DNA of 64,000 bases from a virus. Taxonomy: Duplodnaviria > Heunggongvirae > Uroviricota > Caudoviricetes. Under the pieces are notes generated by a model. That model searched no databases, was not told the DNA's origin, and saw only the letters and a program-made list of their open reading frames with translations. This document shows positions 41,376-64,000 of this stretch, piece by piece (within the stretch, counting starts at the first letter, position 1; each line of letters starts with the position of its first letter). The stretch is taken from the IMG/VR virus record IMGVR_UViG_3300037466_003234; one strand, written 5' to 3'. A program made the translations under genes and the position numbers.

Positions 41376-41451
41376 TGGTCCGAGGGGAGGGAATTGCACC
41401 CTCATTTTCTCCTTCACAGGGAGATGTTCTATCTCGCTAAACTACCCAAGG
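41376..41451 (-). tRNA. tRNA-His (GTG), shares acceptor and T-arm with the previous gene
   Basis: Perfect anticodon stem TCTCC/GGAGA, loop CTGTGAA. 3' 31 nt and 5' 14 nt identical to the 41213 gene. CCA encoded. Confidence 0.55.
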
Positions 41452-41841: not shown

Positions 41842-41917
41842 TGGTCGGGAAAGCACGATTCGAACGTGCGACCTCCTGTATCCAAAACAGGCCGTCTGAC
41901 CACTGACTTATTTCCCG
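41842..41917 (-). tRNA. tRNA-Pro (TGG)
   Basis: Acceptor CGGGAAA/TTTCCCG. Anticodon stem CCTGT/ACAGG, loop TTTGGAT. T-arm GCACG-TTCGAAT-CGTGC. CCA encoded. Confidence 0.8.
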
Positions 41918-41924
41918 ATTTTAA

Positions 41925-41966
41925 ACCTTATAAAATAAAAAAGCCTCCAAACTTTCGTTGGGAGGC
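41925..41966 (-). terminator. intrinsic terminator for minus-strand transcripts
   Basis: Hairpin GCCTCC...GGAGGC followed on the minus strand by TTTTTTATTTTAT. Confidence 0.55.
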
Positions 41967-42164
41967 CTGTGTTCTTGTTAATTGTACAATAGTGAACACA
42001 AGCCTACATATCAGGGCAATCCTTATTAAAATTATGTTTCGGCATGTGTTTTTGCACAGTAAAATTCCTTATATCTTTATAGATTAGTACGCACTAAAGA
42101 ATATATCATATGAAAAATTACTTAAAAGCGAAAAAATCACTAATTTTAGTAATTTTTAATATTA

Positions 42165-51767: not shown

Positions 51768-52237
51768 GCCATTGCCTTCTCGATCGTCGCGCCGGCCAAA
51801 GCCCTTGCAAATTCTTTTGGCATTTTTAGTTCTTCAAACACGATCGTATCGCCTCTGAGTGATCCGGTAGCGGTACCGATTCTCTCGCCATGCTTTTGGA
51901 CATGGAATTCGATCTTTTCGTTGGTCTGAACTGAATAGATATCATGGCCAGACTTCCTAAGTTCATCAGAAAGGAAGTGCGAGTGCTGGTCCACGGTAGG
52001 ATTTACGGAATCTTCGCTCTTCATAAGGGTAGGCTGGAATTGAGGGTAAGCTTTTTCGATGTTATACTTAACGATAGCTGGGTGAGAGCCTGCAGCGAGA
52101 GCTTCTTCGCGAGCCTTTCCCTTTGGCTTGCCGATACCAATCCAGAATCCGCCCTTAGTGCGAATCATCTTGACTGGAGCGTTGTCGAGCATGCCAGCTT
52201 CTTCAATTGAATGAATTTCGTTTGGAGTAATATTCAT
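51734..52237 (-). CDS. hypothetical protein
   Basis: ORF. Confidence 0.5.
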   Translation of the reverse strand: MNITPNEIHSIEEAGMLDNAPVKMIRTKGGFWIGIGKPKGKAREEALAAGSHPAIVKYNIEKAYPQFQPTLMKSEDSVNPTVDQHSHFLSDELRKSGHDIYSVQTNEKIEFHVQKHGERIGTATGSLRGDTIVFEELKMPKEFARALAGATIEKAMACGAKKTRIES

Positions 52238-52238
52238 G

Positions 52239-53372
52239 TTATTTCCCTTTATTGTACGCGTCGTTAATTTTCTTAACGTGCCAATGATGGCTTATATTCT
52301 TGTGCTCTTTTTGGGCTCGATAGGTACCTTTGATGCCCTCTAACCATGCGTAACCTATCGCCGATGGATCATGACCGAAATGATGCTCAAGTCTTGCGAG
52401 ATGGCGGGAGGCTACTTGGTCCTCTAGCTCAGGATGATCTTGCATATAGTGATGCAAGTCTTGACCGTGTAGCATTAACGCCTTTTTGTGCTTGGCCTTG
52501 AGATCGGCACTGAGCCCGACAGTGTCGCGGATGATGGCAGGAGTAAGGCCGTATTTTCCGTACGCCTTTTCGCCATGATGCATTCCGCCTAACGCGTGGT
52601 GATCCATCTGTTTGCCATTGCTACTTTCGACCTGTGCGATCGTATGAAGCATTTTTTGGCTAGAATATGCAGGAATAGTTTGCTGGTGAGCAATATCGTT
52701 GTTGACCGGAGCCATCGATTGGCCCGGAGTACCTACTGCGACTGCGGCAGCTGCGCCGAGTGCAGTTCCTAAGTTTTTGAGAGCACCTTTTTCTAGCGGA
52801 TCGCCCAAGTCTTGCTCGGACGCTGCTAGTTTTTCATACTCCTCATGCTGTTTAGGAGGATGGAAGGTGTCAATTACCTTATGACCATGCCTTAACTGGG
52901 CAGGTCCAAATTCAATGCCTGCCTCGTGGGCAGTTTTTGGTTTTTTAGCGAAAACGTTATCAAACGTCTTTTTGTCCACTGTGATGTGGACAGGGTGATC
53001 TGGAGAGTGTCCAGGGTAGCCGTATTGAGAGAGCTTCTTTCTGTTCTCTACAAAGTGTTTTTGATGCTCGCCGAGCAGCTTAATGGCGTAGGTGTCGTTT
53101 CCGAACCTATCCTTAAGCACTGCGGGCTCAATATGAGTCTTCTTAGGATCAATCGCTGGGTAGTGAAGGCCCTTAGCCGCCTCATGAGCTTGCGCAAGAG
53201 GATCTTTGGTGTGGTCGAACATTTTAATGGTAGAGTGATATGCAATGCCATTGTCCGGTCTATGGGTTTGACCGTTAATGGTTACTGGATGACCCAAAAG
53301 AATACCCTGCTCGGCGATCTTTTTATACGCCTGCGGATCTTCAGCTTTGAGGAGTTCCAGAAAGTAGTCCAT
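52239..53372 (-). CDS. fusion protein: N-terminal 2H-phosphoesterase-like domain plus C-terminal lytic transglycosylase (SLT)-like domain
   Basis: Two H-x-T-x motifs about 85 aa apart (AYHSTIKM and PVHITVD), as in LigT/2H. C-terminal TIAQVESSNGKQ...GGMHHGEKAYGKYGLTP resembles the SLT catalytic ES and GLMQ region. Confidence 0.55.
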   Translation of the reverse strand: MDYFLELLKAEDPQAYKKIAEQGILLGHPVTINGQTHRPDNGIAYHSTIKMFDHTKDPLAQAHEAAKGLHYPAIDPKKTHIEPAVLKDRFGNDTYAIKLLGEHQKHFVENRKKLSQYGYPGHSPDHPVHITVDKKTFDNVFAKKPKTAHEAGIEFGPAQLRHGHKVIDTFHPPKQHEEYEKLAASEQDLGDPLEKGALKNLGTALGAAAAVAVGTPGQSMAPVNNDIAHQQTIPAYSSQKMLHTIAQVESSNGKQMDHHALGGMHHGEKAYGKYGLTPAIIRDTVGLSADLKAKHKKALMLHGQDLHHYMQDHPELEDQVASRHLARLEHHFGHDPSAIGYAWLEGIKGTYRAQKEHKNISHHWHVKKINDAYNKGK

Positions 53373-54199
53373 TAGAAGTTACTCACATGAAATCTTGAGA
53401 AGAAGAGGGCCTTAAGCTTTTTGATAAGCTCCGCCTTCTTATTTTCGAGATCTTCTAGCCTCTTATTATAAACGTTAACGCCTGGACCGCTTGACGACTG
53501 AGAAATGCCGTCTTGAGACATCGATTGAGAGTTGTAAATGTTCGAAGGAGCGATGCTGCTCAAGATGTCGATAGCTGCAACCACGCCAATGAGTTCATTG
53601 ACAGGAATCGGAATCTGACCTTCGGTAGCGGAGATGCCGGCGGTGTAATTGATTTGCCAATAGGCAGGAACCCAGCCGAGTCCACCCATGACAGAGAGGA
53701 ATGCGATACCTGCGTTACCTACGGCGCCCTGAACGGTGTTAATTCCATAAGCTGCAAGTAGCGGGATGACGTTGATTTGGCGCTTAGAGAAATTGGCAGT
53801 TTCGATCCAATCAGGTGGAAGTTCAAAGATATTTTCGCCGTTAGCACTGACGATAGCTAGATGCTCGATACTTACGATAGGGCCTTGCTCGGTGCGAAGC
53901 TGAATGAATGCGTCGTAGAGGCTTTTGTCGAATGGGGCTTTTTCTTGGACAGCATTGCGATAGATTGGGCAGCCAATAAGAGTTTCGACTTCGTTAGAGG
54001 CTAGATTGATACGATCCTTAAGCTCATCTGGGGTAAAGCTATCGCCGTTAGGGAACTGGAGTGGAATACCCTTCAAGTAGCGGCTGATAAGTTTGTCTGG
54101 CGTCAAAAGAGGTTCAACGCGCTTAAGAAGGCCTGAGGTCTCCTTTGCGTGAACCGGATAGACGGCAGTGCCGAAGTTTTTAGTCTGATTGAAGTTCAT
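53372..54199 (-). CDS. virion-module protein (unknown)
   Basis: ATG at 54199 with GGAG SD. TAATG coupling. Confidence 0.55.
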   Translation of the reverse strand: MNFNQTKNFGTAVYPVHAKETSGLLKRVEPLLTPDKLISRYLKGIPLQFPNGDSFTPDELKDRINLASNEVETLIGCPIYRNAVQEKAPFDKSLYDAFIQLRTEQGPIVSIEHLAIVSANGENIFELPPDWIETANFSKRQINVIPLLAAYGINTVQGAVGNAGIAFLSVMGGLGWVPAYWQINYTAGISATEGQIPIPVNELIGVVAAIDILSSIAPSNIYNSQSMSQDGISQSSSGPGVNVYNKRLEDLENKKAELIKKLKALFFSRFHVSNF

Positions 54200-54585
54200 T
54201 AGCAACTCCCATCGGCGCCTGGATACTCAACGGACATCAAATTGATTCCACTGAATTTGCGCGTGACGTTATTTTCAGTGATCGAGAAGACGACGTTACC
54301 GCTAGCAGGGATCTGCGTGCTGGATAGGTCGATCTTCCATAGGGAGCCATCTCCAGTGACCTGGACGGCGTTAATTGTGATCTTTTTAGCGTCGTCAACT
54401 GAAGGGAAATTAACGCTTAAAGCCACGGCAGGATCTTGGGGCATATAGCGCAAGCCATCCTGGTCCATGTCAACTAGTTGGAAATAAAGAGTATTTGGCT
54501 CTCCAGCTCTGATTTCCCACTGGTTAGCGTAGCCGAAGTGATTGATATCACTGAAATTTTTGATAACTTTTGCGGATAGCCTCAT
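54199..54585 (-). CDS. hypothetical protein
   Basis: GGAG SD. Confidence 0.5.
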   Translation of the reverse strand: MRLSAKVIKNFSDINHFGYANQWEIRAGEPNTLYFQLVDMDQDGLRYMPQDPAVALSVNFPSVDDAKKITINAVQVTGDGSLWKIDLSSTQIPASGNVVFSITENNVTRKFSGINLMSVEYPGADGSC

Positions 54586-54664
54586 CTTTTAACTCCAAAA
54601 GGGTATAGTCCTTAATAAAGATTGGAACAAAGGGCTTGATAACCCTTCTATATCGTGCTTAAAT

Positions 54665-54689
54665 AAGGAATTAAGGAATTAAGGAATTA
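54665..54689. repeat. 3x tandem GGAATTAA in the divergent intergenic region
   Basis: Seen directly, between the minus-strand gene ending 54585 and the plus-strand gene at 54708. Confidence 0.6.
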
Positions 54690-54707
54690 ACGAAAATAGG
54701 AGTTAAC

Positions 54708-55424
54708 ATGAAAGTAATCGCTGTAAGTGGCTGGAAAGGTTCAGGAAAAGACACTCTAGCTGCGCATTTGATCGATAAATTTGGTGCAGTCCGCACTTCT
54801 TTTGCTGACCCTCTGAAAGATATGGTGGCCGAAGAATACGGTATTGACCGTACCTCCCTGGACGACCCAGGCCGCAAGGAGCGAGCCCTTCTTCACCTCC
54901 CAGTGAATCCACAAGACCCATATAGTCGCATGATTGCCGAATTCCTCATTAAGGAATTTCGTACTACTCAAGGCATTCAGCCGACAGACTTCACCTATCA
55001 AAACGGTGATTTTTATGGCGTGATCGGAGACATCTCTACTGGACAAACCGTTCGCGTTTATTGGACCCCTCGCGCATTGGCCATTTTGAAGGGTTCTACC
55101 AATCGTTCCGTTCGCTCAAACTACTGGGTGAAGAGAGCGGTTGAGGAAGTTGCTCGCAAAGCCGCAGATGGCTTCGAGCTTCACGTTATTTCTGACCTTC
55201 GCTATCAGTCTGAAATGCAACAATTGAAAGACACCTTTGGATCGGACGTAGTATTCGTAAGAGTCAATCGTTTCGAAGAAAGCCCATCCAAAGATCCTTC
55301 GGAAAGAGATTTGGATAACGCGACCTTCGATTTCTACGTGAACAATAAGGGTACGAAAGAGGAAGCTTTCGCTAGGATGGAAGACATCCTAAGACAAGTG
55401 ACCGTAAACGCCCAAAGCGCGTAA
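54708..55424 (+). CDS. deoxynucleoside monophosphate kinase (T4 gp1-like)
   Basis: MKVIAVSGWKGSGKDTLAAHLIDKFG parallels T4 Dnk MKLIFLSGVKRSGKDTTADFI. P-loop present. TAGGAG SD. Confidence 0.7.
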   Translation: MKVIAVSGWKGSGKDTLAAHLIDKFGAVRTSFADPLKDMVAEEYGIDRTSLDDPGRKERALLHLPVNPQDPYSRMIAEFLIKEFRTTQGIQPTDFTYQNGDFYGVIGDISTGQTVRVYWTPRALAILKGSTNRSVRSNYWVKRAVEEVARKAADGFELHVISDLRYQSEMQQLKDTFGSDVVFVRVNRFEESPSKDPSERDLDNATFDFYVNNKGTKEEAFARMEDILRQVTVNAQSA

Positions 55425-55431
55425 TAAGTTA

Positions 55432-55472
55432 GGGGCCAGTAGCCGACGATGCTGGCCCCTATTCATTTTCTA
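55432..55472. terminator. hairpin between convergent genes (bidirectional terminator candidate)
   Basis: AGGGGCCAG-loop12-CTGGCCCCT then ATTCATTTTCT. Confidence 0.45.
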
Positions 55473-56136
55473 CGTAATATTCGCCATCTTCCGATTTAAC
55501 GATTTTCTTTGGATTTCCTTCGGTCGGTAAATACTGACCGTCCAAAACCGCCGCATTTACCCATACTTTGCCGTCTTTGTAGGTATAGCCGCGAGACTCG
55601 TGAATGTGACCAAAGATATGGAGTTTCACATTGGTCTCCATGATCCTCTTATAGAGGGCTGGGCAGCCAACGTTTTTATTTTGATGTGGAATAAAATCTA
55701 GGCGATCCCAAGCGGGGCCATGGGTAATAAGGATTTCGGTATCCTCTGGGATCATATCCCAGTGGGGTTGAATTTCGATCTGATTGCGATTAAATGCCCA
55801 ATTGCAGAATTCTGGCTGAACAGGCGAACCCCAGATCTTAATTCCTTCGATTTCGATTCCGCTATCGTTAAGGAGTATGATCCCGCGATTCTTGCACTCG
55901 TCTGCGCAGAGGCTTGGATTTTCCTCAAAGAGCCAGTCGTGGTTGCCTGGAACGAATATCTTATGCTTGTAATTCTGTTTGGCATACCAGTCCAAAAAGT
56001 TCATTACTTCGCTAACTCTGCCGCCAAGGGTGGCGTCGCCAGCGTGAATAAGAATGTCTCCGCCAGGCATGGTAAATTTGTTATGCCTATTATGGGTGTC
56101 CGAAATAGCGTGAATTTTGATACCTTCTAAACTCAT
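55459..56136 (-). CDS. calcineurin-like metallophosphoesterase
   Basis: HAISDTHNRH, HAGDATLGG and VPGNHDW (GDxHG / GDxxDRG / GNH[DE]). Also ITHGPAW and GHIHE. Confidence 0.7.
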   Translation of the reverse strand: MSLEGIKIHAISDTHNRHNKFTMPGGDILIHAGDATLGGRVSEVMNFLDWYAKQNYKHKIFVPGNHDWLFEENPSLCADECKNRGIILLNDSGIEIEGIKIWGSPVQPEFCNWAFNRNQIEIQPHWDMIPEDTEILITHGPAWDRLDFIPHQNKNVGCPALYKRIMETNVKLHIFGHIHESRGYTYKDGKVWVNAAVLDGQYLPTEGNPKKIVKSEDGEYYVENE

Positions 56137-56270
56137 GCCATATTTATATCAGATCGGGTATAAGAATGGTTATTTCGTTAATTTCTATACCCGAAGGGGT
56201 ATAAAATAAAAAAGGGCCGGTACCCGAAGGTACCGACCCTTTAATTATTTACGCTACTAGCGCTCCAGGC

Positions 56271-57653
56271 TTAGTGGAGTTGGCCAGTGATGTTCTCGAT
56301 GAGAACATTCTTGCGAGGCTGATAAACAGCCAAGCTGAGGAAGCGGAAGTGCGCTTCTGGGAGCGACAAATCGCTAACAGCGAGCTTGAGCTTGCTGTAT
56401 GGAGCGAGTTGAGCGAGGCCCATCGTGTTTGCTTGGACCAAGAATCCGGTGACCGAGCCTGGAGCGCGGTTGCCGAGGTCGGTGAACACTGGGTTGCCAG
56501 CGCCTTGAGCAACGCGACCGATGAACTTAGCAGAAGCAGCGCTTCCACCAACGTCAGAGCGGTAAACGTTGTAATACTTAGCCTGAGCAACAGCGCCGAT
56601 CGTGACCGTGATCTTGTGCTGAGCAGCGATCGTTACAGATCCAGCAGCCGAAGGCATGGACTCACCGCGTTCGTTGCAAGCCGTAGCGTAGTACGTGAAT
56701 GCGCCGGCAGCGAGGAGGGTTCCTGCGGCACCTGCGTCAGCAACCGTGATCGAAGGAGCAGCTGGGCTGCCAGAACGAGCGCGGGCTGGGCGGGTCTTAC
56801 CAGACAAGAAGCGAGAAGCTTCTAGGCTGACAACTGCGCTGGAGGTCCACTGAGTGCGGAGGTGAGCGCCGGTTGATTCTTGAGCAGATCCAGCAAGAAC
56901 GATACGCTCCTTAGCGTGTGCGATCTTGTTGTATGCAGACAAGCTGATTGGGTCGAGCATGAGCTTGTCAGCTGCGCCCATGTTCATTGCAGAACGAACT
57001 GCAGCGTCTTCGATGATGGATTGCGAGAGCGTTCCACCAGCAGAGAGGACGACGGTTTGGTCAGAGCCAAACTCAGCGAACATAAGGTCTTGGGTGTTCG
57101 ACTGAGCGTCCGATTGACGAACTTGCTGGTCGAGACCGATCATGTTAGGAACCTTAGCAGCTGCCAATGGGTTACCATCGAACACACCTGCGTTGGAGTA
57201 GTCAGATTGACCACGGAAGCAGTCGAACTCGATGTCGCCAGCGAGCTTCATAGCTGCATCGCTAGCTGCGCGGTCTTCAGCCTTTTGGCCGTCGAACGTG
57301 CCGATCAAGTTAGCGGCAACGGTGACACGACGAGTCGTGCTGTAGTATGCCATAGGCACCACTGCACGAACGTAGTTCGAGGTTTCTTCTTCCCCGATAC
57401 CACCTTCATACTGTGCCGATCCACCAAAGATACCGTAGTCTAGCTGACGGTTGAATTGGTGAAGCTGGGACTTAACGTCCTTAGAAGGGATCATCTTCTG
57501 AAGCTTAATGTGTTGGTCTTCGAAAGTGACGTTGTGCATAACAGGGGAAAGGTCTTCCACCATTAGCGCAGCGCCTTGGGCTAGTTGGCCTGGAGCAGCA
57601 TTATAAGAACCTGCTTCCAAAGCTTTCATGAGTGATTGTAGTTGCTCAATCAT
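56271..57653 (-). CDS. major capsid protein (HK97-fold type)
   Basis: 460 aa immediately downstream of a scaffold-like gene. Ala/Gly/Ser/Thr-rich capsid-like composition. Confidence 0.6.
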   Translation of the reverse strand: MIEQLQSLMKALEAGSYNAAPGQLAQGAALMVEDLSPVMHNVTFEDQHIKLQKMIPSKDVKSQLHQFNRQLDYGIFGGSAQYEGGIGEEETSNYVRAVVPMAYYSTTRRVTVAANLIGTFDGQKAEDRAASDAAMKLAGDIEFDCFRGQSDYSNAGVFDGNPLAAAKVPNMIGLDQQVRQSDAQSNTQDLMFAEFGSDQTVVLSAGGTLSQSIIEDAAVRSAMNMGAADKLMLDPISLSAYNKIAHAKERIVLAGSAQESTGAHLRTQWTSSAVVSLEASRFLSGKTRPARARSGSPAAPSITVADAGAAGTLLAAGAFTYYATACNERGESMPSAAGSVTIAAQHKITVTIGAVAQAKYYNVYRSDVGGSAASAKFIGRVAQGAGNPVFTDLGNRAPGSVTGFLVQANTMGLAQLAPYSKLKLAVSDLSLPEAHFRFLSLAVYQPRKNVLIENITGQLH

Positions 57654-57679
57654 TGTTATTCTCCTTAGTTAATTTCCGC

Positions 57680-58564
57680 TTACTTGAGTAAGTGGCTGAT
57701 TTTCTCAATACTTACTTGGCCCGTGCCGTAGTAAGCGTTAATTGCATCTCTGTCAGACTTGGTTAAAGTTGGATCTGCTGCTTTCTTCGTTAGAATCTGA
57801 GTGATTTCACTCTTAGTGAAGGTTTTCGCTTCGGCTTGAACGTTTTCGCTCTTAGCGACAACGTCGAGAGAAGTGATTGCCTTACCTACTGGAGCGGATC
57901 TCTTAGACATTTTGGTCAAGATTTCCGTAACTCCATCTAACGTTTTCTTAAGTTCTTCGATCTTTGCATCTTTTGCAGCGATCTCAGACTTTAGAAGGTC
58001 GGTCTCTTCGGACTTAACTTCGACCGAAACTTCCGTTTCAGACTTAGTCATTGCTGGGGCTGGAGCTTCAGCTTGCTGAGCTGCACCCTTAGCGTCTAGA
58101 GCCTTACGAACGGCGTCGTGGTGAGCCTTAAGTTCACCATGCGACATGGAGCTATACATCTGGTGCATATGTTCCATATCTTCGTCGTCGTACCCGTGAT
58201 CGTCGCCTTCTGCAGCTGGAGCTTCAGGAGCCTTAGCTTCATCAGCTGGGGCTTCTTTCTTATCTTCAGCTGGAGGAGCTTCTTTGCTTTCTTCCTTAGC
58301 TTCAGGGGCTTTTTCGCCTTCTTCTGCTTTAGGAGCTTCTTCAGCGGGTTTTTCTTCTTTCTTTTCTTCTGCTTTTGGCTCTTCCTTTTTCTCTTCAGGC
58401 TTCTTTTCGTCTTCAGCCTTAGCGAGAGGAGCAGCATCAGCAGCAGCGGTCGTAGATTCATCGGACTTAGCGAGCTTGAAGTCTTCTTCAGCTTTAGCCA
58501 AGTGAGCCGTGAACTCTCTTTCCACGTCTTCAATTAATTTTGCTAGTTCCTTCTCGGTGTACAT
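57680..58564 (-). CDS. scaffolding-like protein
   Basis: Highly charged Lys/Glu/Ala/Pro-rich helical protein directly upstream of the capsid gene. Confidence 0.5.
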   Translation of the reverse strand: MYTEKELAKLIEDVEREFTAHLAKAEEDFKLAKSDESTTAAADAAPLAKAEDEKKPEEKKEEPKAEEKKEEKPAEEAPKAEEGEKAPEAKEESKEAPPAEDKKEAPADEAKAPEAPAAEGDDHGYDDEDMEHMHQMYSSMSHGELKAHHDAVRKALDAKGAAQQAEAPAPAMTKSETEVSVEVKSEETDLLKSEIAAKDAKIEELKKTLDGVTEILTKMSKRSAPVGKAITSLDVVAKSENVQAEAKTFTKSEITQILTKKAADPTLTKSDRDAINAYYGTGQVSIEKISHLLK

Positions 58565-58591
58565 AGTAGTAACCTCCTACAATGTTACCGA

Positions 58592-59041
58592 TTAGACGCC
58601 CTTAGTTGGCCAGTAGAGATCCTCTAGCTCGATTGCAGCAGCGGCAGCGTTAAGAGCAGCTTCGCTTGGAACGGTTCCGTTAGCGATTTCCTTAACTTGC
58701 ACTTTTGCGCCGATAGCGAAAACTTCGCGAGCAACAGTCATGAGGTCAGTAGCAGCTGGGGTTGGCTTGCCGTTAGCATCGAGTTCGTAGCCGAGTTCGA
58801 TAGCGTGTGGAGCGAAAGCGGTAAGCGAGTTACCGAAAACGTCCTTAGAAACTGCGTCAGCAGCGCTGCAGCGAAGAGCGATAACAGATTCGCCGGTAGC
58901 TGGGGTTGCGTCTGCGGAAACGATGATCATTGGCCATCCTTGAGCGTCGGTCGATTGCGTAATGACTTTGCTTGCAAGGCGGATTTTAAGCTTGTCAGCG
59001 AGATCGCGGAATAGCGCGATTGCTTTTGCGGTTGATTTCAT
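58592..59041 (-). CDS. hypothetical head-module protein
   Basis: First gene of the minus-strand structural operon. Function unknown. Confidence 0.5.
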   Translation of the reverse strand: MKSTAKAIALFRDLADKLKIRLASKVITQSTDAQGWPMIIVSADATPATGESVIALRCSAADAVSKDVFGNSLTAFAPHAIELGYELDANGKPTPAATDLMTVAREVFAIGAKVQVKEIANGTVPSEAALNAAAAAIELEDLYWPTKGV

Positions 59042-59250
59042 GTAAAAATCTCCTGTTTAGAGTTGTGTTAACACCGCTACTTTCACTAAGTAGCGTAACC
59101 TTACGATATGATTAAATGATTCTTGCTCTGACCATTTATTAAGTCATTTCAATAGGTTACGAGCATTTTATTGCAATTTAACCAATTAGATCGGTTACTT
59201 AATGCCGTTATTTCCAGCCTAATCTTCTTTAAGATATAGGTAGGACATAG

Positions 59251-60753
59251 ATGGCCACATTCATTCACGGCATTGCCGCATCAGAAAATATCGATTCCTC
59301 TGGCGAAGTAGTTTCCATCGTCGGTATGGATATTTCTTCACTAGACAAGACTGGCGTGTTCAATTGGGAGCACGATCAGGCCACAGGTCCGAATGGCGAG
59401 AAATTAACGATTAAGCTACCTTCCAATGTTGTAGGTAAGATCTTGAAAGCAAAGAAGATCTTTTCCGAACAAGACTGTGAAGATGAGCACCAGCTTTATT
59501 TCTGGAATAAGATCAAAACCCCATACCTTTACGTTATGGGCGAACTTTTGGACGATTATAAGGATTCTGCCAAGGAAGTAGCTGGAATGTTCCGCTATGA
59601 CGCAGATAGGCAGAATCAAAATGAACACGACATTATTGGTTTTTCGATCGAAGGCAATAACCTCAAAAAAGAGGGAATGACCATTACCCGCTCGATCGCC
59701 CGAAAATTAACGATCACAACCGGCCCTTGCAATAAAGCTTGTGTGGCCGAAATAATGCCTGATCAGGGTGAAAGTCAGATTAAAGACGATATTGATAGCA
59801 TCTTCAAATCCGAAGAAAGCTTTGATATTCAACTATTTAAGTCTGACAAGCTTGATCAGATGTACGAAGACTTCTTGGCCAAGAAAGAGGAAGCCATGAA
59901 TAAAGCAGATCCAAAAACCCTCAATGGCCCAGCTAAGGCACCGATGGCGCCTATGGCTCCTGCCCAGACCACGACCGCCGGTCGAGTCCATGGTTGGCAT
60001 GCTTCTATTAGCCAGCATAGCGGTGGAACTAACGTTAATTTCGAACATCCGCAGCATGGCATGGTCACGGTTCATAAGAATCCTGAGTCCAATCACTACG
60101 AAGTAAAGCATAATGGCGCTCACGCAGGTCTTATGGGTCACAAAGGTATTCATCCAGATGCCGCCTCTGCCGTAGCCCACGCTAAAAACTACATCCAAGC
60201 AGTTAACTCCGGCAAGGTAGCAGGCAAACGCATGATGAACGTTAATTCCAATATGGGAATTGACAAAAAACCTGTCGCCAAGGCCGATACCGCTGGATCT
60301 GCCAACGTAGCTCCATCACAATTAACAGGCACCGCAGCCCTCGCCAAAGAAGATCTTGATAAGGCAGACGCAGGTGTTTACAATCAAAAAGGAGTTCACC
60401 TTCCTCCTTTGAGCGATAAGAAGGGTGGAACCAGCGTAATGGGCACTCATGTCAGAAACCCTTCTAGTGCCGGAGCAGGATCTAAAGAGATGGCTCGCCG
60501 CCATGCTCAAAATGGCCTAAAACAGCTCAAAGAAATGCCTAAGCCGAAATTAACGAAGTCTGACTGGCTTGATCGTGCGGACGAAGCTTACCAAAACTGG
60601 GATAAAAAAGAACAATTTGAAGCATTTATGCATTCCCGCCTTCCGCACCTAGCTAAGGGTGAGGTTGAAGCTATCGGAAAAACGTTAGCGTTGAAAAAAT
60701 CCCTTGATTTCGAGGCCGCTTTAGGTAAACTGATTAAGAAACAAGAAGAATAA
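59251..60753 (+). CDS. prohead protease-like (HK97 U35/S78 family) N-terminal domain fused to long low-complexity C-terminal region
   Basis: N-terminus FIHGIAASENIDSSGEVVSIVGMD resembles the protease pattern G-Y-A-S...D..G-[DE]-V-V. Divergent from the capsid operon. Confidence 0.4.
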   Translation: MATFIHGIAASENIDSSGEVVSIVGMDISSLDKTGVFNWEHDQATGPNGEKLTIKLPSNVVGKILKAKKIFSEQDCEDEHQLYFWNKIKTPYLYVMGELLDDYKDSAKEVAGMFRYDADRQNQNEHDIIGFSIEGNNLKKEGMTITRSIARKLTITTGPCNKACVAEIMPDQGESQIKDDIDSIFKSEESFDIQLFKSDKLDQMYEDFLAKKEEAMNKADPKTLNGPAKAPMAPMAPAQTTTAGRVHGWHASISQHSGGTNVNFEHPQHGMVTVHKNPESNHYEVKHNGAHAGLMGHKGIHPDAASAVAHAKNYIQAVNSGKVAGKRMMNVNSNMGIDKKPVAKADTAGSANVAPSQLTGTAALAKEDLDKADAGVYNQKGVHLPPLSDKKGGTSVMGTHVRNPSSAGAGSKEMARRHAQNGLKQLKEMPKPKLTKSDWLDRADEAYQNWDKKEQFEAFMHSRLPHLAKGEVEAIGKTLALKKSLDFEAALGKLIKKQEE

Positions 60754-60838
60754 GAACATAGTGTTGTCATGTATTCCTTTTATGGGCCAGGGGTGGCAAA
60801 CCTCTGGCCCTTTTTGTTTATGATATATACGGTTCAAT

Positions 60839-60914
60839 GGGGTCGTAGCTCAGTTGGTAGAGCGGTAGCTTTGCAAGCTATAGGTCAAGGGTTCGAGTCC
60901 CTTCTTCTCCACCA
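60839..60914 (+). tRNA. tRNA-Ala (TGC) with imperfect acceptor stem
   Basis: D-arm GCTC-AGTTGGTA-GAGC. Anticodon loop TTTGCAA. T-arm AAGGG-TTCGAGT-CCCTT. CCA encoded. G3-U70 present; mismatches at 5-68 and 6-67. Confidence 0.6.
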
Positions 60915-60957
60915 AGTTTAATTTGCCGCTTGCGGGCGGGGCCTGCCGCAACAGGTC

Positions 60958-61029
60958 GCTATCGTCGTCTAGGGGCCTAGGATACCGTCATTTCGGGCGG
61001 AGACGCTGGTTCAAATCCAGCCGATAGCT
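60958..61029 (+). tRNA. tRNA-Glu-like gene with aberrant anticodon loop
   Basis: Acceptor GCTATCG/CGATAGC. D-arm TCGTCTAGGGGCCTAGGATA and T-arm GCTGG-TTCAAAT-CCAGC parallel E. coli tRNA-Glu. Anticodon region CCGTCATTTCGGGCGG is 1 nt short (6- or 8-nt loop). Confidence 0.4.
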
Positions 61030-61142
61030 ATTTTCTTGTTGTCTTATTTTCTTATCTGATATAATCTTATTTGTATAGCGATGCCGATTGATAGTGCAAA
61101 GCTAGAAATTAACACTCGTAGGAATATTACGAGGAGGACAAA

Positions 61143-61922
61143 ATGATTTATCTCAATGACCAACCGGTCAATACTACCATTTTCCCAGACAACACTTCTC
61201 AGGTCTGGAAGCTTCCCAAAGATATCTTTTTTAAATCCTATATTTCAATTAAATGGGCTTTTTCTAATGAAGGCGAGTTTTTACAGCTTGCTCAGCTAAA
61301 GCATCTTTTGAGTAATAAGTGCCAATACGGTCCATTTATCACTCTTACCTTAACCTATTTGCCATATGGCAGACAAGATAAGGAAGTTTGCAATGAGGCC
61401 ACTTTCGCCCTTCGCACTTTTGCCGCTCTGCTCAACACCTTGCAATTCGACTCTGTCATCATTCATGATCCTCACAGTAAAATTGCGCTGGATTTGATCA
61501 ATAATTCTCATGCAGTTTATCCAGAGAGAAAAATTTTAGACGCTAGAGTGGCCACAAATTCTCCGCTACTCTGCTATCCCGATAAGGGCGCTGTAAGTAA
61601 ATATTCTGAGACGTATCCTGGGTGGGATTACATTTACGGTCAAAAAGTCCGCGATCAATTGACTGGAAACATTACGCACTATGAGCTTATCGGTGATTGT
61701 GTCGGCCAAAACGTACTTATCGTGGACGATATCTGCGATGGCGGAATGACTTTTATTTTGCTTGCCAAAAGCTTGCTGGCAGCAGGTGCTAAAGAGGTAA
61801 ACCTTTTTGTCACCCATGGAATTTTCTCCAAAGGGACGAGAGTTCTATTTGAAGCAGGCATTAAACGCGTGTTTACCCAAGATGGTGAAGTCGGGCCACG
61901 CGAAACCTCAATTCAGTTCTAA
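61143..61922 (+). CDS. PRPP-synthetase-family pyrophosphokinase (candidate ADP-ribose pyrophosphokinase, Adps-like)
   Basis: VLIVDDICDGGMTFILLAKSLLAAGAKEVNLFVTHGIFS is the PRPP-binding / phosphoribosyltransferase motif. Directly upstream of a NAMPT-family gene. Confidence 0.7.
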   Translation: MIYLNDQPVNTTIFPDNTSQVWKLPKDIFFKSYISIKWAFSNEGEFLQLAQLKHLLSNKCQYGPFITLTLTYLPYGRQDKEVCNEATFALRTFAALLNTLQFDSVIIHDPHSKIALDLINNSHAVYPERKILDARVATNSPLLCYPDKGAVSKYSETYPGWDYIYGQKVRDQLTGNITHYELIGDCVGQNVLIVDDICDGGMTFILLAKSLLAAGAKEVNLFVTHGIFSKGTRVLFEAGIKRVFTQDGEVGPRETSIQF

Positions 61923-61936
61923 TTATAGGAGATTAT

Positions 61937-63397
61937 ATGAAGAACTTATCTGCAATGTTGTTGTGTGATTTTTATAAAATTAGCCATAGGGCTATGTATC
62001 CAGTGGGCACTGAAGTCGTTTATTCGACCTGGACGCCTCGCGCTTCTCGCATGAATGGAGTGGAAAAGGTCGTTGCCTTTGGCTTCCAAGCTTTCTTGAA
62101 AGAGCTTAACGAATATTTTGACGTTAATTTCTTCGGTAGAGATAAGGAAGAGGTTGTTTTTGAATATTCTCGTATTGTCAAACACACCTTAGGTGTCGAA
62201 AATCCTGAAACTAAGCATATCGAAGATTTGCATGATCTTGGATACCTGCCTTTGTCGATCAAGGCCCTCCCAGAAGGAACCTTGGTACCACTTCGCGTTC
62301 CAATGCTTACGATCCAAAACACCGACCCTCGCTTCTTCTGGCTCACCAACTACATTGAGACCTTGGCCTCATGCCAACTCTGGCAGCCTTGCACGTCGGC
62401 AACGATTGCACGCGAATATCGTCAGATCCTTGATAAATGGGCCATGAAGACCGTTGGAAATACTGATTTCGTTCCTTTCCAGGGCCACGACTTCTCTATG
62501 CGCGGCATGAGTTCGCTTGATTCAGCGATGCTCAGTGGCATGGGCCACCTCACCCAATTCGTTGGCACCGACACGATTCCTGCTATCCAGGTAGCTGAAA
62601 AGTATTATGGAGCTAATGTTCAGACGGAAATGGTAGGAACGTCAATTCCTGCAACGGAACACTCGATCCAATGTGCTTATGGTAACGACGTTGAATACTA
62701 CAAAAACATGATCAATCGCGTCCATCCAAGTGGCTTCGTATCGATCGTGTCTGACGGATACGACTTCTGGGATGTCATCACTCGCGTAATTCCTTCCTTG
62801 AAACGCGATATCTTGAAACGCGATGGTCGCGTTGTTGTTCGCCCTGACTCTGGAGATCCAGTTCTTATTGTTTGCGGTGATCCAAATGCTCCAGTTGGAA
62901 GCCCTGAATATAAGGGTGCAATTGAGTGTCTTTACGAAACTTTTGGTGGAACCGTCACTAAAGAAGGTTATAAAGTGCTCGATAGCCATATCGGCTTGAT
63001 TTACGGTGACGCTATTACCCTTCGCCGCGCAGAAGAGATCTGCGAGCGTTTGGCTGCCAAGAGATTTGCTTCGATTAATGTTGTGTTCGGTATCGGTTCT
63101 TATACGTACCAATACAATACTCGTGACACCTTCGGATTTGCCCTTAAGAGCACGCTCTGCGTGATTAACGGCGAAGAAAAGCATATCTTTAAAGACCCTA
63201 AGACCGATAACGGCATCAAAAAGAGCCAAAAAGGTCGCGTGGCCGTCTTGAAGGATGGTAAAGAAGGTCTTAAATTCGTTGACGGCCTTGGCCTTCAAGA
63301 TAACCTCGTTAGTGATCAGCTTGTCGAGATTTATCGTGACGGCGAAATCCTTAAAGAGTATACTTTCGAAGAGATTCGCGCTCGCCTGAAGGGCTAA
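61937..63397 (+). CDS. nicotinamide phosphoribosyltransferase family protein (NAMPT/NadV-like; candidate nicotinamide ADPR transferase, Namat-like)
   Basis: N-terminus LLCDFYKISH and overall about 486 aa are NAMPT-like. Adjacent to the Prs-like gene. Confidence 0.75.
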   Translation: MKNLSAMLLCDFYKISHRAMYPVGTEVVYSTWTPRASRMNGVEKVVAFGFQAFLKELNEYFDVNFFGRDKEEVVFEYSRIVKHTLGVENPETKHIEDLHDLGYLPLSIKALPEGTLVPLRVPMLTIQNTDPRFFWLTNYIETLASCQLWQPCTSATIAREYRQILDKWAMKTVGNTDFVPFQGHDFSMRGMSSLDSAMLSGMGHLTQFVGTDTIPAIQVAEKYYGANVQTEMVGTSIPATEHSIQCAYGNDVEYYKNMINRVHPSGFVSIVSDGYDFWDVITRVIPSLKRDILKRDGRVVVRPDSGDPVLIVCGDPNAPVGSPEYKGAIECLYETFGGTVTKEGYKVLDSHIGLIYGDAITLRRAEEICERLAAKRFASINVVFGIGSYTYQYNTRDTFGFALKSTLCVINGEEKHIFKDPKTDNGIKKSQKGRVAVLKDGKEGLKFVDGLGLQDNLVSDQLVEIYRDGEILKEYTFEEIRARLKG

Positions 63398-63447
63398 CAG
63401 AGAATGTAGGGTCGCTCCCTACCCAGACCGGTGGTTCCTGGTGACAA

Positions 63448-63471
63448 GCGGGGAGAGACCCGCACATTTTT
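63448..63471 (+). terminator. weak intrinsic terminator
   Basis: GCGGG-gagaga-CCCGC then ACATTTTTA. Confidence 0.35.
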
Positions 63472-63513
63472 ACAGACGATGCGTCACCTGCCCACCCAGG
63501 AGGGTGGCTGTGG

Positions 63514-63753
63514 ATGAGTGGTGAGGATGGCCTGCTGGCTACTTTTATGACTGAATTGCTTATATCCCTAGCTTTAGCGTCTTGCCCGGCTACGCAAATG
63601 ATCAATAAGACAGCGTATCCATGGAACGATAACGATAAGCAGACGATGAAATACTGTCAGAGAAGGTGCTCAGACTACTACCCCGACGCGCCCTGTCTTA
63701 AACAGTTCATCAAGTGGAATAAGCAAGACTATCACTGTCTTTGTGGCATTTAA
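63514..63753 (+). CDS. Cys-rich small protein
   Basis: GGAGGG SD inside a CCACC/GGTGG stem. MKYCQRRCSDYYPDAPC...CLCG. Confidence 0.45.
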   Translation: MSGEDGLLATFMTELLISLALASCPATQMINKTAYPWNDNDKQTMKYCQRRCSDYYPDAPCLKQFIKWNKQDYHCLCGI

Positions 63754-64000
63754 GGCTTAAAGAAGCGTAAATGAATAACTGGTAAATTGTCGAGATGAAC
63801 CCAGCCACCGTTAAGGTCTTCCATGCGTAGTCCAAGCTCTTCTAGGTGAGGAAGAAGGATCTGACGGATCTTTGCACAGTTTGCGGCGCCTTCAAAGCCA
63901 GAGATGTGGAAATCGATAGCGTGACCGGTCTTGTGAGGCGAGTTTGGAACGTGCTTTTTAGCCTTTTCTTCAGGTGTTAAGTCTTTCCAAACCTGGGTCT
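63750..64000 (-). CDS. peptidase M15 family (L-alanyl-D-glutamate peptidase/VanY-like) endolysin, C-terminal part; gene continues past window end
   Basis: Minus-frame translation ...SPHKTGHAIDFHISG...GGWVHLDNLPVIHLRFFKP* carries the SxHxxGxAxD and VHxD zinc-peptidase motifs. Confidence 0.55.
   Translation of the reverse strand, partial: TQVWKDLTPEEKAKKHVPNSPHKTGHAIDFHISGFEGAANCAKIRQILLPHLEELGLRMEDLNGGWVHLDNLPVIHLRFFKP

What the first reader, a model, noticed from the sequence alone, without database searches (positions are those of the whole stretch)
60839..61029. Second tRNA locus: tRNA-Ala with mismatched acceptor stem and a tRNA-Glu-like gene with a 6- or 8-nt anticodon loop
The Ala gene keeps the G3-U70 identity pair but has U-U and C-U mismatches at 5-68 and 6-67. 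The downstream gene matches E. coli tRNA-Glu over the D-arm, T-arm and acceptor stem. Its anticodon arm (CCGTCATTTCGGGCGG) is one nucleotide short, which gives either a 6-nt loop or a 4-bp stem with an 8-nt loop around TTC. It could be a decaying pseudogene, a frameshift-suppressor-like tRNA or a decoy. Long ORFs in the window are intact under the standard code, so wholesale stop-codon recoding is unlikely.
Basis: seen in the sequence. Interest (0 to 1): 0.55.

Follow-up and report, generated by a model that had tools for sequence, protein, structure and literature searches.

The report
Phage tRNA-Glu look-alike with shortened anticodon loop
A large phage carries, right after a normal-looking alanine tRNA gene, a well-folded copy of a glutamate tRNA whose anticodon loop is one base short; it is real rather than a sequencing error, and probably acts as a tRNA-shaped RNA, not as a working tRNA.

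Summary
ARAGORN and the Rfam tRNA model find tRNA-Ala(UGC) at 60839-60914, with U5·U68 and C6·U67 mismatches. They also find a 72-nt tRNA-Glu-type cloverleaf at 60958-61029 with a 5-bp anticodon stem and a 6-nt loop, AUUUCG. A distinct sister genome has the same 268 bp, so this is not a sequencing error. The Glu-like gene is the only one of eight tRNA genes in the window without an encoded CCA. All its stems and tertiary-core bases are intact.

I found no other tRNA-Glu-like gene with this loop in 2.9 million viral contigs or 185,579 species genomes.

The related phages change the reading. The same genomic island (head protease, tRNA-Ala(UGC), Prs-NadV) repeatedly carries tRNA-Glu-type modules that cannot decode. 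These are circularly permuted, YrlA-like tRNA mimics. They often sit beside Rsr/Ro60 with Y RNAs and a PTH2 hydrolase. One Y RNA there carries a standard-order tRNA-like domain that also has a 6-nt loop.

My ranking:
- Non-decoding tRNA-Glu mimic: about 0.4.
- Recently disabled pseudogene: about 0.3.
- Decoding variant: about 0.12.
- Processing or terminator element: about 0.1.

No Rsr gene or Y-RNA stem is present in the window. Interest is moderate.

The parts
60784..60820 (+). Intrinsic terminator after the head-protease/scaffold gene (59251-60753): an 11-bp hairpin followed by a T run.
   Evidence: stem 60784-60810, tail TTTTTGTTTA. The sister genome shows changes in the hairpin that keep it paired.
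60821..60829 (+). Promoter-like extended -10 element, TGATATATA, 9 nt upstream of tRNA-Ala. Putative start of an Ala plus Glu-like transcript.
   Evidence: Read from the sequence. Similar TGATATA(A/G)T elements sit 8-10 nt upstream of the small-RNA genes in relatives L060 and L061 and upstream of those in L054-L057. The consensus scan did not call it, so this is an inference.
60839..60914 (+). tRNA-Ala(UGC) with G3·U70, A73 and an encoded CCA. It has tandem mismatches U5·U68 (60843/60906) and C6·U67 (60844/60905).
   Evidence: The cloverleaf is not the minimum-energy fold. Counterpart tRNA-Ala(UGC) genes in relatives have perfect acceptor stems, so the mismatches are derived.
60915..60957 (+). 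43-nt G+C-rich spacer between the two genes. It has no promoter-like element.
   Evidence: the predicted hairpins fold no better than shuffled sequence (z = +0.5). It is identical in the sister genome.
60958..61029 (+). tRNA-Glu-type cloverleaf. Acceptor GCUAUCG/CGAUAGC (7/7 pairs), U8 C9, D arm 60967-60983, A26, anticodon stem CCGUC/GGCGG, loop AUUUCG, 4-nt variable region AGAC, T arm GCUGG-UUCAAAU-CCAGC, discriminator U at 61029. No encoded CCA.
60990..60995 (+). The 6-nt 'anticodon' loop AUUUCG. Compared with the canonical CUUUCAC it has C32A, A37G and a deletion of position 38. U33-U34-U35-C36 is retained.
   Evidence: Alignment with four canonical phage tRNA-Glu genes that share the D arm. 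Arm fold.
61036..61065 (+). Promoter of the Prs-NadV operon: TTGTTG, an 18-nt spacer, then TATAAT preceded by TG. It starts 7 nt after the Glu-like gene.
   Evidence: The element is conserved in L048 (TTGTTT-17-TATACT), in L061 and in L060.
61143..63397 (+). Context: Prs-like phosphoribosyltransferase (61143-61922) and NadV/NAMPT (61937-63397), the NAD-salvage pair that accompanies the tRNA-like elements across the clade.
   Evidence: Pfam Pribosyltran, NAPRTase. Synteny.

Best explanation
The element at 60958-61029 is a real tRNA-Glu-derived gene. It is probably co-transcribed behind tRNA-Ala(UGC) and folds into a complete tRNA cloverleaf, but it most likely does not decode. I read it as a tRNA-shaped non-coding RNA, a tRNA-Glu mimic. 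It would be the unpermuted relative of the tRNA-Glu-type, YrlA-like modules that related phages keep at the same genomic island.

Proposed mechanism:
1. The dicistronic transcript is cut by host RNase P and by a 3' processing enzyme such as RNase Z. This step is inferred from the intact 7-bp acceptor and 5-bp T helices and from the missing CCA.
2. The RNA adopts the L-shape. This is inferred from the retained U8, A14, G18/G19, G15:C48, U13·G22··A46 and T loop.
3. It engages one or more tRNA-binding proteins. Candidates are modification enzymes, an Rsr/RNA-repair-type partner, or a host tRNA-targeting nuclease.
4. The 6-nt loop keeps it out of normal codon reading.

What is shown: the sequence, the fold, the missing CCA, identity in a second genome, and the family context in relatives. 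What is inferred: expression, processing, the protein partner and the benefit to the phage.
For: 1. It is real and not an error. It scores 42.5 bits on RF00005, and the same sequence occurs in a distinct genome.

2. The body is intact while the changes cluster around the anticodon. All stems pair, the cloverleaf is the minimum-energy fold, and the changes are C32A, A37G and a deletion of position 38.

3. It is the only one of eight tRNA genes without an encoded CCA. The relative L048 (protease 71% identical) keeps the same U discriminator and the same lack of CCA. Its T stem differs by three compensatory pairs, GCUGG/CCAGC versus GUGAG/CUCAC, while the T loop and the 3' acceptor strand are identical. 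The RNA structure was therefore under selection for a long time while the gene lacked an encoded CCA.

4. Seven tRNA-Glu-type modules in relatives (L005 has two, L054, L055/L059, L056 has two, L061) have the conserved 'UC GUCUAR..AGGAC' D arm. Most (four of the seven) also have a 4-nt variable region. Their closing, T and acceptor helices covary in sequence. All are circularly permuted, so they have no anticodon loop. L061's variable region, AGAC, equals the window's.

5. These modules sit in the same island as the window's pair, beside tRNA-Ala(UGC), Prs-NadV and PTH2, and in four phage lineages (five loci) beside Rsr/TROVE with YrlA-like Y RNAs.

6. L055 and L059 share one Y-RNA scaffold. 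L059 holds a permuted YrlA-type domain, whereas L055 holds a standard-order tRNA-like domain with a 5-bp stem and a 6-nt loop. D. radiodurans Yrn1 is described with the same 5-bp/6-nt arm (PMC4201824).

7. No tRNA-Glu-like gene with this loop was found in 185,579 species genomes, and none in 2.9 million viral contigs outside this lineage. It is therefore not a common decay product.
Against: - The window has no Rsr/TROVE or PTH2 gene (tblastn) and no YrlA match. No close Rsr homologue lies on the 170-kb sister contig (top 120 hits only).
- The element is not permuted. It has no significant long 5'/3' stem (z = -0.2) and no Y-RNA scaffold motif.
- Its D loop is closer to canonical phage tRNA-Glu genes than to the permuted modules.
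- The only genome sharing the full gene is a near-identical strain, so conservation of the 6-nt loop itself has no evolutionary depth.
- In L048 the 5' half is not recognisably tRNA-like, and my attempt to show homology of that part was not significant. Simple decay in that lineage would also fit.
- tRNA content varies between strains, which suits gene gain and loss.
- There are no expression data.
Confidence: 0.4

Rival explanations
1. It is a recently inactivated tRNA-Glu(UUC) gene, a pseudogene. A one-base deletion and two substitutions in the anticodon loop disabled a codon-supplementing tRNA, and the rest has not yet decayed.
For: - The lesions lie where they abolish decoding, and A37, a GluRS identity element (from memory of E. 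coli work), is changed.
- C25U and C30U weaken two further pairs to G·U.
- There is no encoded CCA.
- tRNA content differs even between sister strains: one has an extra tRNA-Tyr.
- L048 has lost the 5' half and tRNA-Ala and has also deleted Prs-NadV.
- The neighbouring tRNA-Ala carries derived mismatches too.
- GAA is the commonest Glu codon (40 per 1,000), so an ancestral working tRNA-Glu(UUC) would make sense.
Against: - Every helix is still fully paired and every tertiary-core base is retained.
- The lack of an encoded CCA is old, because it is shared with L048, yet the T stem kept pairing through three double substitutions.
- All three loop changes avoid U33-U34-U35-C36. By my own post-hoc count, this has about a 1-in-35 chance if three of the seven loop positions were hit at random.
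- No comparable 6-nt-loop tRNA-Glu exists in very large genome collections.
- The clade keeps non-decoding Glu-type modules under clear structural selection.
Confidence: 0.3
2. It is a working tRNA-Glu whose anticodon loop has been remodelled. One version keeps UUC decoding while escaping a host anticodon nuclease. The other opens C31-G39 and reads a 4-base codon through an 8-nt loop, causing a frameshift.
For: - U33-UUC-purine37 is retained in the loop.
- Changes to loop positions flanking the anticodon are the pattern proposed for nuclease-insensitive phage tRNAs (PMC10264068).
- The augmented D-helix features of tRNA-Glu (U11-A24, U13·G22··A46, a 4-nt variable region) are retained (the identity rules are from memory).
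- GAA is the preferred Glu codon.
- NAD-salvage genes lie next door. I know such genes from memory as counter-defence genes, so this may be a counter-defence neighbourhood.
Against: - A 6-nt loop removes position 38 and the 32-38 interaction. I know of no natural bacterial elongator tRNA with such a loop, and a literature search for the term found nothing.
- A37 is changed to G.
- The 8-nt form is thermodynamically disfavoured and would place A at position 33, or add a base 5' of U33.
- The nuclease-evasion paper reports substitutions, not changes in loop size.
- Relatives keep Glu-type modules with no anticodon at all.
Confidence: 0.12
3. It is a structural punctuation element. A tRNA-like acceptor/T-arm fold would serve as an RNase P/RNase Z processing site, or as a terminator-like end of the tRNA-Ala (or late head-gene) transcript, just upstream of the Prs-NadV promoter.
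For: - In L048 only the 3' half survives. That half comprises the T arm (which shows covariation), the acceptor 3' strand and a U-rich trailer. It lies 6 nt after the protease stop codon and directly abuts the conserved promoter.
- In the window the acceptor helix is followed by UAUUUUCUUGUU and no separate terminator.
- The missing CCA suits cleavage by RNase Z (general knowledge).
Against: - Conservation of the trailer is explained by the promoter alone.
- Multi-branched structures are not typical intrinsic terminators, and the scan called none here.
- The window keeps a full D arm and tertiary core, which a mere processing signal would not need.
- Pairing of the L048 5' strand may be chance.
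Confidence: 0.1
4. It is a sequencing or assembly artefact: one base dropped from a normal 7-nt loop.
For: None found.
Against: The identical 6-nt loop occurs in an independently assembled, distinct genome, JGI 3300037423, a 170-kb contig. The loop also carries two substitutions as well as the deletion.
Confidence: 0.01

Closest known systems
Bacterial and phage Y RNAs with tRNA-like domains: YrlA (Rfam RF02553) and D. radiodurans Yrn1 (Chen et al. 2014, PMC4201824)
   Same: Both are tRNA mimics with authentic D and T arms and a tRNA tertiary core but no decoding function. Yrn1 is described with a 5-bp 'anticodon' stem and a 6-nt loop, as here. Relatives of this phage carry YrlA-like RNAs and Rsr at the same island. 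One Y RNA among them (L055) has a standard-order tRNA-like domain with a 6-nt loop.
   Different: The window's element is free-standing with open acceptor ends. It has no Ro-binding 5'/3' stem, no adjacent rsr gene and no match to the YrlA model. It is of tRNA-Glu type, whereas the YrlA consensus has a GUAGCUCA..GGUAGAGC D arm.
Canonical bacterial or phage tRNA-Glu(UUC)
   Same: The D arm, anticodon stem, 4-nt variable region, T loop and overall cloverleaf match. UUC sits in the loop after a U.
   Different: The loop has 6 nt rather than 7 (C32A, A37G, position 38 deleted). The discriminator is U and there is no encoded CCA, unlike the other seven tRNA genes in the window.
Phage tRNAs with anticodon-loop substitutions proposed to escape host anticodon nucleases (van den Berg et al. 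2023, PMC10264068)
   Same: It is a phage-encoded tRNA whose differences from the canonical form cluster in the loop positions flanking an unchanged anticodon.
   Different: The described cases are base substitutions in 7-nt loops of tRNAs presumed to decode. Here the loop size itself has changed, which probably prevents decoding.
tRNA-like stable RNAs and pseudo-tRNAs in large phage tRNA clusters (for example T4 species 1 and 2 RNAs; recalled from memory, not tested)
   Same: These are small tRNA-like genes embedded among phage tRNA genes, co-transcribed with them and of unknown function.
   Different: I made no sequence or structure comparison here. This is a lead only.

Membership tests
Elongator tRNA-Glu | Cloverleaf with paired acceptor, D, anticodon and T arms that matches the tRNA covariance model | tested here: met
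   RF00005 scores 42.5 bits against a gathering score of 29. ARAGORN cloverleaf. The minimum-energy fold is the cloverleaf.
Elongator tRNA-Glu | 7-nt anticodon loop with U33, anticodon at positions 34-36 and a purine at 37 | tested here: not met
   The loop is AUUUCG, 6 nt. ARAGORN reports a 2-nt 'anticodon', and the covariance-model alignment shows a one-base deletion.
Elongator tRNA-Glu | GluRS identity set from E. coli work, recalled from memory: U34, U35, C36, A37; G1-C72, U2-A71; U11-A24; U13·G22··A46; position 47 absent | tested here: inconclusive
   Present: U-U-C, G1-C72, U11-A24, U13·G22, A46 and a 4-nt variable region. Absent: A37 (it is G) and U2-A71 (it is C-G, as in other phage tRNA-Glu genes). 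Charging cannot be tested with these tools.
Elongator tRNA-Glu | 3' CCA end, either encoded or added | tested here: not met
   CCA is not encoded (..CGAUAGC-U-AUU), whereas the other seven tRNA genes in the window encode it. Post-transcriptional addition cannot be tested here.
tRNA pseudogene | A disabling lesion together with signs of relaxed constraint, such as unpaired stems or lost core bases | tested here: inconclusive
   A disabling lesion is present (the loop). There is no sign of relaxed constraint: all stems pair, the core bases are kept, and the T stem covaries with L048. The only full-length homologue is a near-identical strain.
Y RNA / YrlA | Encoded next to an rsr (Ro60/TROVE) gene | tested here: not met
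   tblastn found no TROVE homologue in the window or in 10 kb beyond it in the sister strain. None of the top 120 Rsr homologues lies on the sister contig. Relatives do have rsr.
Y RNA / YrlA | A long stem formed by the 5' and 3' ends (the Ro-binding helix) that encloses the tRNA-like domain | tested here: not met
   The extended fold is no better than shuffled sequence (z = -0.2). The scaffold motif GGUUACUUC is not enriched in the window or present at the locus. By contrast, L010/L055 gives z = -3.9.
Y RNA / YrlA | Permuted order (T arm, then acceptor hairpin, then D arm) and a match to RF02553 | tested here: not met
   No YrlA match at E <= 0.5 anywhere in the window. The element is in standard tRNA order.
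Clade-specific tRNA-Glu-type tRNA-like modules (defined here from L005, L054, L055/L059, L056 and L061) | 'UC GUCUAR...AGGAC R' D arm, a 4-5-nt variable region, and paired T, acceptor and closing helices, located in the head-protease / tRNA-Ala / Prs-NadV island | tested here: met
   The window element has all of these features when read in rotated order. Its variable region AGAC equals that of L061, and it lies in the same island.
Clade-specific tRNA-Glu-type tRNA-like modules (defined here from L005, L054, L055/L059, L056 and L061) | Circular permutation: the closing stem is formed by the module's ends, and there is no anticodon loop | tested here: not met
   The window element has open acceptor ends and a closed 6-nt loop.
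Frameshift-suppressor tRNA | 8-nt anticodon loop that presents a 4-base anticodon after U33 | tested here: not met
   The 5-bp/6-nt form dominates the ensemble at 0.92. The 8-nt form CAUUUCGG has A at position 33, or an extra base 5' of U33 (read from the sequence).

The most novel reading that the evidence does not exclude
The element is a free-standing, Rsr-independent tRNA-Glu mimic. It would be an evolutionary intermediate between a real phage tRNA-Glu and the permuted Y-RNA-type modules of its relatives. The phage would express it as a decoy or sponge for a host factor that binds or cleaves tRNA, making it part of a counter-defence island alongside the NAD-salvage genes. The 6-nt loop would be selected because it blocks codon reading while keeping the tRNA shape.
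Probability: 0.2. Interest if true: 0.75.

Novelty: new variant of a known kind. Interest (0 to 1): 0.45.

Why it matters
Phage tRNAs are now seen as weapons against host defences that destroy tRNA, and tRNA-like domains of Y RNAs still have no known function. A phage lineage holding the same tRNA-Glu-type body in three states would offer a natural series for two questions: what the tRNA shape is for, and how tRNA mimics arise from tRNA genes. The three states are a standard cloverleaf with a shortened loop (this window), circularly permuted modules with Rsr, and circularly permuted modules without Rsr. If the element proves to be only a fresh pseudogene, the finding is ordinary. It would then mainly show that automatic annotation should not count this gene as a tRNA-Glu.

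Tried and rejected
1. Nucleotide search of cultured phages. There was no relative for 52000-64000. Only generic tRNA-Ala matches and weak tRNA matches turned up. The closest cultured phage by capsid protein is Myxococcus phage Mx1 at 55%, and it is not syntenic here.

2. Exact and degenerate pattern scans.
- The T arm plus acceptor pattern found nothing in the metagenome collection.
- Genome contigs gave nothing for the pattern made of the 3' anticodon-stem strand, the variable region and the T arm.
- Viral contigs gave only the sister contig for the 27-nt anticodon-arm probe and for the T-loop/3'-acceptor/trailer pattern, and the sister contig plus one unrelated contig for two others.
- The four other viral hits and all 57 genome hits to the 6-nt-loop pattern are coding-sequence or repeat coincidences, not tRNAs.

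3. L046 shares 28 nt of the 3' half but is a different tRNA with a CUU anticodon. It is not an orthologue.

4. Permuted tmRNA. The Rfam hit across the Ala-Glu junction scores 14.8 bits at E = 0.7, and the strands are not complementary. Rejected.

5. One long Y-like RNA spanning Ala, spacer and Glu-like. No closing stem could be found, and the fold of the spacer plus the Glu-like element is no better than shuffled sequence. Rejected.

6. ARAGORN with relaxed thresholds on relatives gave mostly false positives inside coding regions.

7. Homology between the L048 5' segment and the window's region after the stop codon. The alignment score is below the mean for shuffled sequences. Dropped.

8. Motif GCTATTTTCTT or promoter TGATATAAT as a repeated phage signal. 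Neither is enriched in the window.

9. Exact look-ups of the window's protease and Prs proteins found no record, so the window's own genome is not in that collection.

10. Literature search for a six-nucleotide anticodon loop found no paper. A search for defence systems that cleave tRNA-Glu gave nothing directly relevant.
Full report
**1. What is in the sequence**

ARAGORN finds eight tRNA-type genes in the window. Two form the locus in question:
- tRNA-Ala(UGC) at 60839-60914.
- A 'tRNA-???' at 60958-61029, reported with a two-base 'anticodon', which means a 6-nt loop.

The Rfam tRNA model scores them 65.5 and 42.5 bits against a gathering score of 29. It aligns the second gene with a one-base deletion in the anticodon loop. 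The default filtered scan missed that gene.

The Ala gene has G3·U70, A73 and an encoded CCA. It also has the tandem mismatches U5·U68 and C6·U67. With those mismatches, its cloverleaf is not the minimum-energy fold.

The second gene reads: GCUAUCG UC GUCUAGGGGCCUAGGAU A CCGUC AUUUCG GGCGG AGAC GCUGG UUCAAAU CCAGC CGAUAGC U.
- Every helix is fully paired.
- The cloverleaf is the minimum-energy structure (-26.8 kcal/mol, z = -2.3).
- The isolated anticodon arm folds as a 5-bp stem with a 6-nt loop at frequency 0.92.
- Unlike the other seven genes, it has no encoded CCA.

**2. Its type**

- The D arm, anticodon stem, 4-nt variable region and T loop are of tRNA-Glu type.
- The acceptor and T stems are different sequences.
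- Relative to the invariant CCGCC-CUUUCAC-GGCGG, the window has C30U (a G·U pair), C32A, A37G and a deletion of position 38.
- C25U makes a further G·U pair, with G10.
- U33-U34-U35-C36 is untouched.

**3. It is not an error, but there is little evolutionary depth**

A 170-kb JGI viral contig (loci L001, L035, L049) carries the same two genes. Over 6.6 kb it differs from the window at 374 aligned positions. Most of these lie in a swapped Prs allele that is only 64% identical at the protein level. The contig is identical to the window from 60804 to 61071. This rules out a sequencing error. Because the two genomes are about 99% identical in the neighbouring head genes, it says little about selection on the loop.

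**4. Rarity**

The pattern GGAYA-CCGYC-N-UUUC-N-GGCGG hits five places in 2.9 million viral contigs. Only this lineage is a tRNA. It hits 57 loci (62 sites) in one genome for each of 185,579 species, and none of them is tRNA-like. A tRNA-Glu with this 6-nt loop is therefore not a routine pseudogene or a routine assembly artefact.

**5. The nearest divergent relative, L048**

L048 is a Logan contig whose head protease is 71% identical to the window's.
- It has lost Prs-NadV. Only the last 20 nt or so of nadV remain. It has no tRNA-Ala.
- Directly after the protease stop codon it keeps the 3' half of the Glu-like gene..GGGUGG AAAC GUGAG UUCAAAU CUCAC CGAUAGC U AUUUU.., followed by the same promoter.
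- The T stem differs from the window's by three double, pair-preserving substitutions. The T loop, the 3' acceptor strand, the U discriminator and the absence of CCA are all identical.
- The RNA fold was therefore under selection for a long time while the gene already lacked an encoded CCA.
- The 5' half of the L048 element is not recognisably tRNA-like. A four-way fold is predicted but is not significant. My attempt to show homology of that part failed.

**6. What more distant relatives carry at the same island**

This changed my reading. What first looked like a graveyard of tRNA-Glu fragments in L004, L005 and L010 turned out to be intact, circularly permuted tRNA-like modules. Their order is: closing-stem 5' strand, variable region, T arm, acceptor hairpin, 'UC', a Glu-type D arm (GUCUAR..AGGAC), position 26, closing-stem 3' strand.

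I delimited seven modules:

| Locus | Modules |
|---|---|
| L005 | 2 |
| L054 (= L004) | 1 |
| L055/L059 (= L010 type) | 1 |
| L056 | 2 |
| L061 | 1 |

- The closing stems are GGCGG/CCGCC, GGCGG/CUGCC, GCCGG/CCGGC, AGCGG/CCGCU, GCCAG/CUGGC, ACGG/CCGU and GACAG/CUGUC.
- The T stems differ in sequence but all pair. The acceptor hairpins do the same in every module except L054, where I found no convincing acceptor hairpin.
- This is the topology of YrlA, the tRNA-mimicking Y RNA (PMC4201824).

Bona fide YrlA-like RNAs lie beside rsr (Ro60/TROVE) genes in the same relatives:
- L004 scores 42.1 bits. L057 scores 53.3, L059 41.8 and L056 28.9. The latter three are full-length matches to the model. 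All are below Rfam's gathering score of 69, with E-values from 2e-9 to 0.025.
- The L004 protein matches Pfam TROVE at 82.5 bits. Precomputed TROVE hits mark L056, L057 and L059.
- A PTH2 peptidyl-tRNA hydrolase is also part of the island in L002, L004, L005 and L056.

**7. Synteny links these modules to the window's pair**

| Locus | Gene order |
|---|---|
| L061 | protease, small ORF, permuted Glu-type module, tRNA-Ala(UGC), the same TGATATAAT promoter, Prs, NadV |
| Window | protease, tRNA-Ala(UGC), standard-order Glu-like gene, promoter, Prs, NadV |
| L057 | Prs, NadV, YrlA-like RNA, rsr, tRNA-Ala(UGC) |
| L055/L059 | Prs, NadV, Y RNAs, rsr, Glu-type module |

The variable region AGAC is the same in the window and in L061. 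The tRNA-Ala counterparts in L057, L060 and L061, and a tRNA-Ala in the unrelated jumbo contig L045 that shares the window's 3' strand CUUCUCC, all have perfect acceptor stems. The window's two mismatches therefore arose by AA changing to UC on the 5' strand.

**8. A direct precedent for the 6-nt loop in a mimic**

L055 and L059 have the same Y-RNA scaffold on both flanks. L059 holds a permuted YrlA-type domain. L055 holds a standard-order tRNA-like domain (44.5 bits on the tRNA model) with a 5-bp stem and a 6-nt loop, CGUAAG. That domain is enclosed by long 5'/3' helices, and its fold has z = -3.9 with no shuffle of 200 folding as well. Chen et al. describe the D. radiodurans Y RNA Yrn1 with a 5-bp 'anticodon' stem and a 6-nt loop. 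A shortened loop on a true tRNA body is thus a known feature of non-decoding tRNA mimics, and it occurs in this phage clade.

**9. What the window lacks**

- It has no Rsr and no PTH2 by tblastn.
- It has no YrlA match.
- The Y-scaffold motif is not enriched.
- No significant stem extends beyond the acceptor helix.
- None of the 120 best Rsr homologues lies on the sister contig.

The element therefore fails the membership tests for a Y RNA. The claim I make is that it works like a tRNA mimic, not that it is a YrlA.

**10. Weighing the explanations**

- **Non-decoding mimic, 0.4.** This fits best with the intact body, the old loss of CCA under continued structural selection, the changes confined to loop positions flanking UUUC, the rarity of such genes elsewhere, and the clade-wide retention of non-decoding Glu-type modules.
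- **Fresh pseudogene, 0.3.** This remains a strong rival. The 6-nt loop is seen only in two near-identical genomes. tRNA content changes between strains: the sister strain has an extra tRNA-Tyr. L048 shows loss in this region. The neighbouring Ala gene is also damaged.
- **Decoding variant, 0.12.** This could be a nuclease-evading form (compare PMC10264068) or a four-base reader. It is less likely because the loop size, not only its sequence, has changed, and A37 is lost.
- **Processing or terminator role, 0.1.** This is suggested by L048 and by the U-rich trailer. The promoter alone could explain the conservation of the trailer.

**11. Transcription (inferred)**

- An intrinsic terminator at 60784-60810 ends the protease gene.
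- TGATATATA at 60821-60829 lies 9 nt before tRNA-Ala and resembles the extended -10 elements that precede the small-RNA genes in relatives.
- The 43-nt spacer has no such element, so the two genes are probably one transcript.
- The Prs-NadV promoter (TTGTTG, 18 nt, TATAAT with TG) begins 7 nt after the Glu-like gene and is conserved in L048, L060 and L061.

**12. Verdict**

I class the element as a new variant of a known kind, namely a tRNA-derived, tRNA-mimicking phage RNA. Interest is moderate. The more interesting point is the family context, which experiment could turn into a test of how tRNA mimics arise.

Noticed in passing
L005:3247-3390; L054:3050-3122 (= L004 about 3318-3395); L055:3058-3124 (= L010); L056:4551-4690; L061:4556-4642; L059 downstream of rsr: A family of circularly permuted tRNA-like modules with a tRNA-Glu-type D arm ('UC GUCUAR..AGGAC'). 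Their closing and T helices, and in all but one module (L054) their acceptor helices, differ in sequence but stay paired. They have the YrlA topology but do not match the Rfam YrlA model. They occur downstream of rsr and also in loci where no rsr was seen (L005, L061).
   Followed up: partly
L054:1100-1500, L055:1050-1500, L056:2526-3000, L057:2733-3000, L059:2568-3000: Two to four tandem Y-RNA-like units lie upstream of phage rsr genes. They share a scaffold, (C)GAAGAAGUGA..GGUUACUUC..AAUUUUCUCU. The first unit carries a tRNA-like domain. L055 and L059 have the same scaffold but opposite domain topologies: standard order with a 6-nt loop versus permuted YrlA type.
   Followed up: partly
window 41213-41288 (-) and 41376-41451 (-): tRNA-Arg(CCG) and tRNA-His(GUG) share the same acceptor and T arms, so they look like paralogues. 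Both have tandem pyrimidine-pyrimidine mismatches, U3·C70 and U4·U69. The His gene has A73 and C, not G, at position -1. With tRNA-Ala, three of the eight tRNA genes carry two adjacent acceptor-stem mismatches. CGG, the codon read by the Arg tRNA, is rare in the window at 2.2 per 1,000.
   Followed up: no
L051:10763-10850, compared with window about 41917-42000: The near-identical sister strain has an extra tRNA-Tyr(GUA) next to tRNA-Pro in the first tRNA cluster, which the window lacks. tRNA gene content therefore differs between strains that are about 99% identical.
   Followed up: partly
window 61150-61900: The Prs-like gene is a swapped allele. It is 64% identical at the protein level to the sister strain's, while flanking genes are 99-100% identical. 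The recombination boundaries lie just after the tRNA/promoter region and near the start of nadV.
   Followed up: partly
window 63398-63470; L048:6760-6850: A conserved G+C-rich hairpin region with a terminator (GUAGGG-UCGC-UCCCUAC ... GCGGG-GAGAGA-CCCGC-ACAUUUUU) follows nadV. L048 keeps it together with the last 20 nt or so of nadV, which shows that Prs-NadV was deleted there. A small Cys-rich ORF follows in both (window 63514-63753).
   Followed up: partly
L002:3534-3872, L004:3450-3791, L005:3521-3856, L056:4706-5044: A PTH2-type peptidyl-tRNA hydrolase gene (Pfam PF01981, 136 bits for L004) is part of the same island in several relatives. It is absent from the window.
   Followed up: partly
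window 47901-49181 (-): A 426-aa protein among the tail and structural genes has a precomputed Pfam hit to mCpol (PF18182, minimal CRISPR polymerase domain) in the sister strain's annotation.
   Followed up: no
L004:1470-1532 (= L054 about 1170-1232): At first this looked like a 3' tRNA half followed by a 5' tRNA half with complementary acceptor strands. It is the tRNA-like module of a YrlA-like RNA (Rfam 42.1 bits, E = 5e-6). tRNA finders miss such modules, and they can be mistaken for tRNA fragments.
   Followed up: yes
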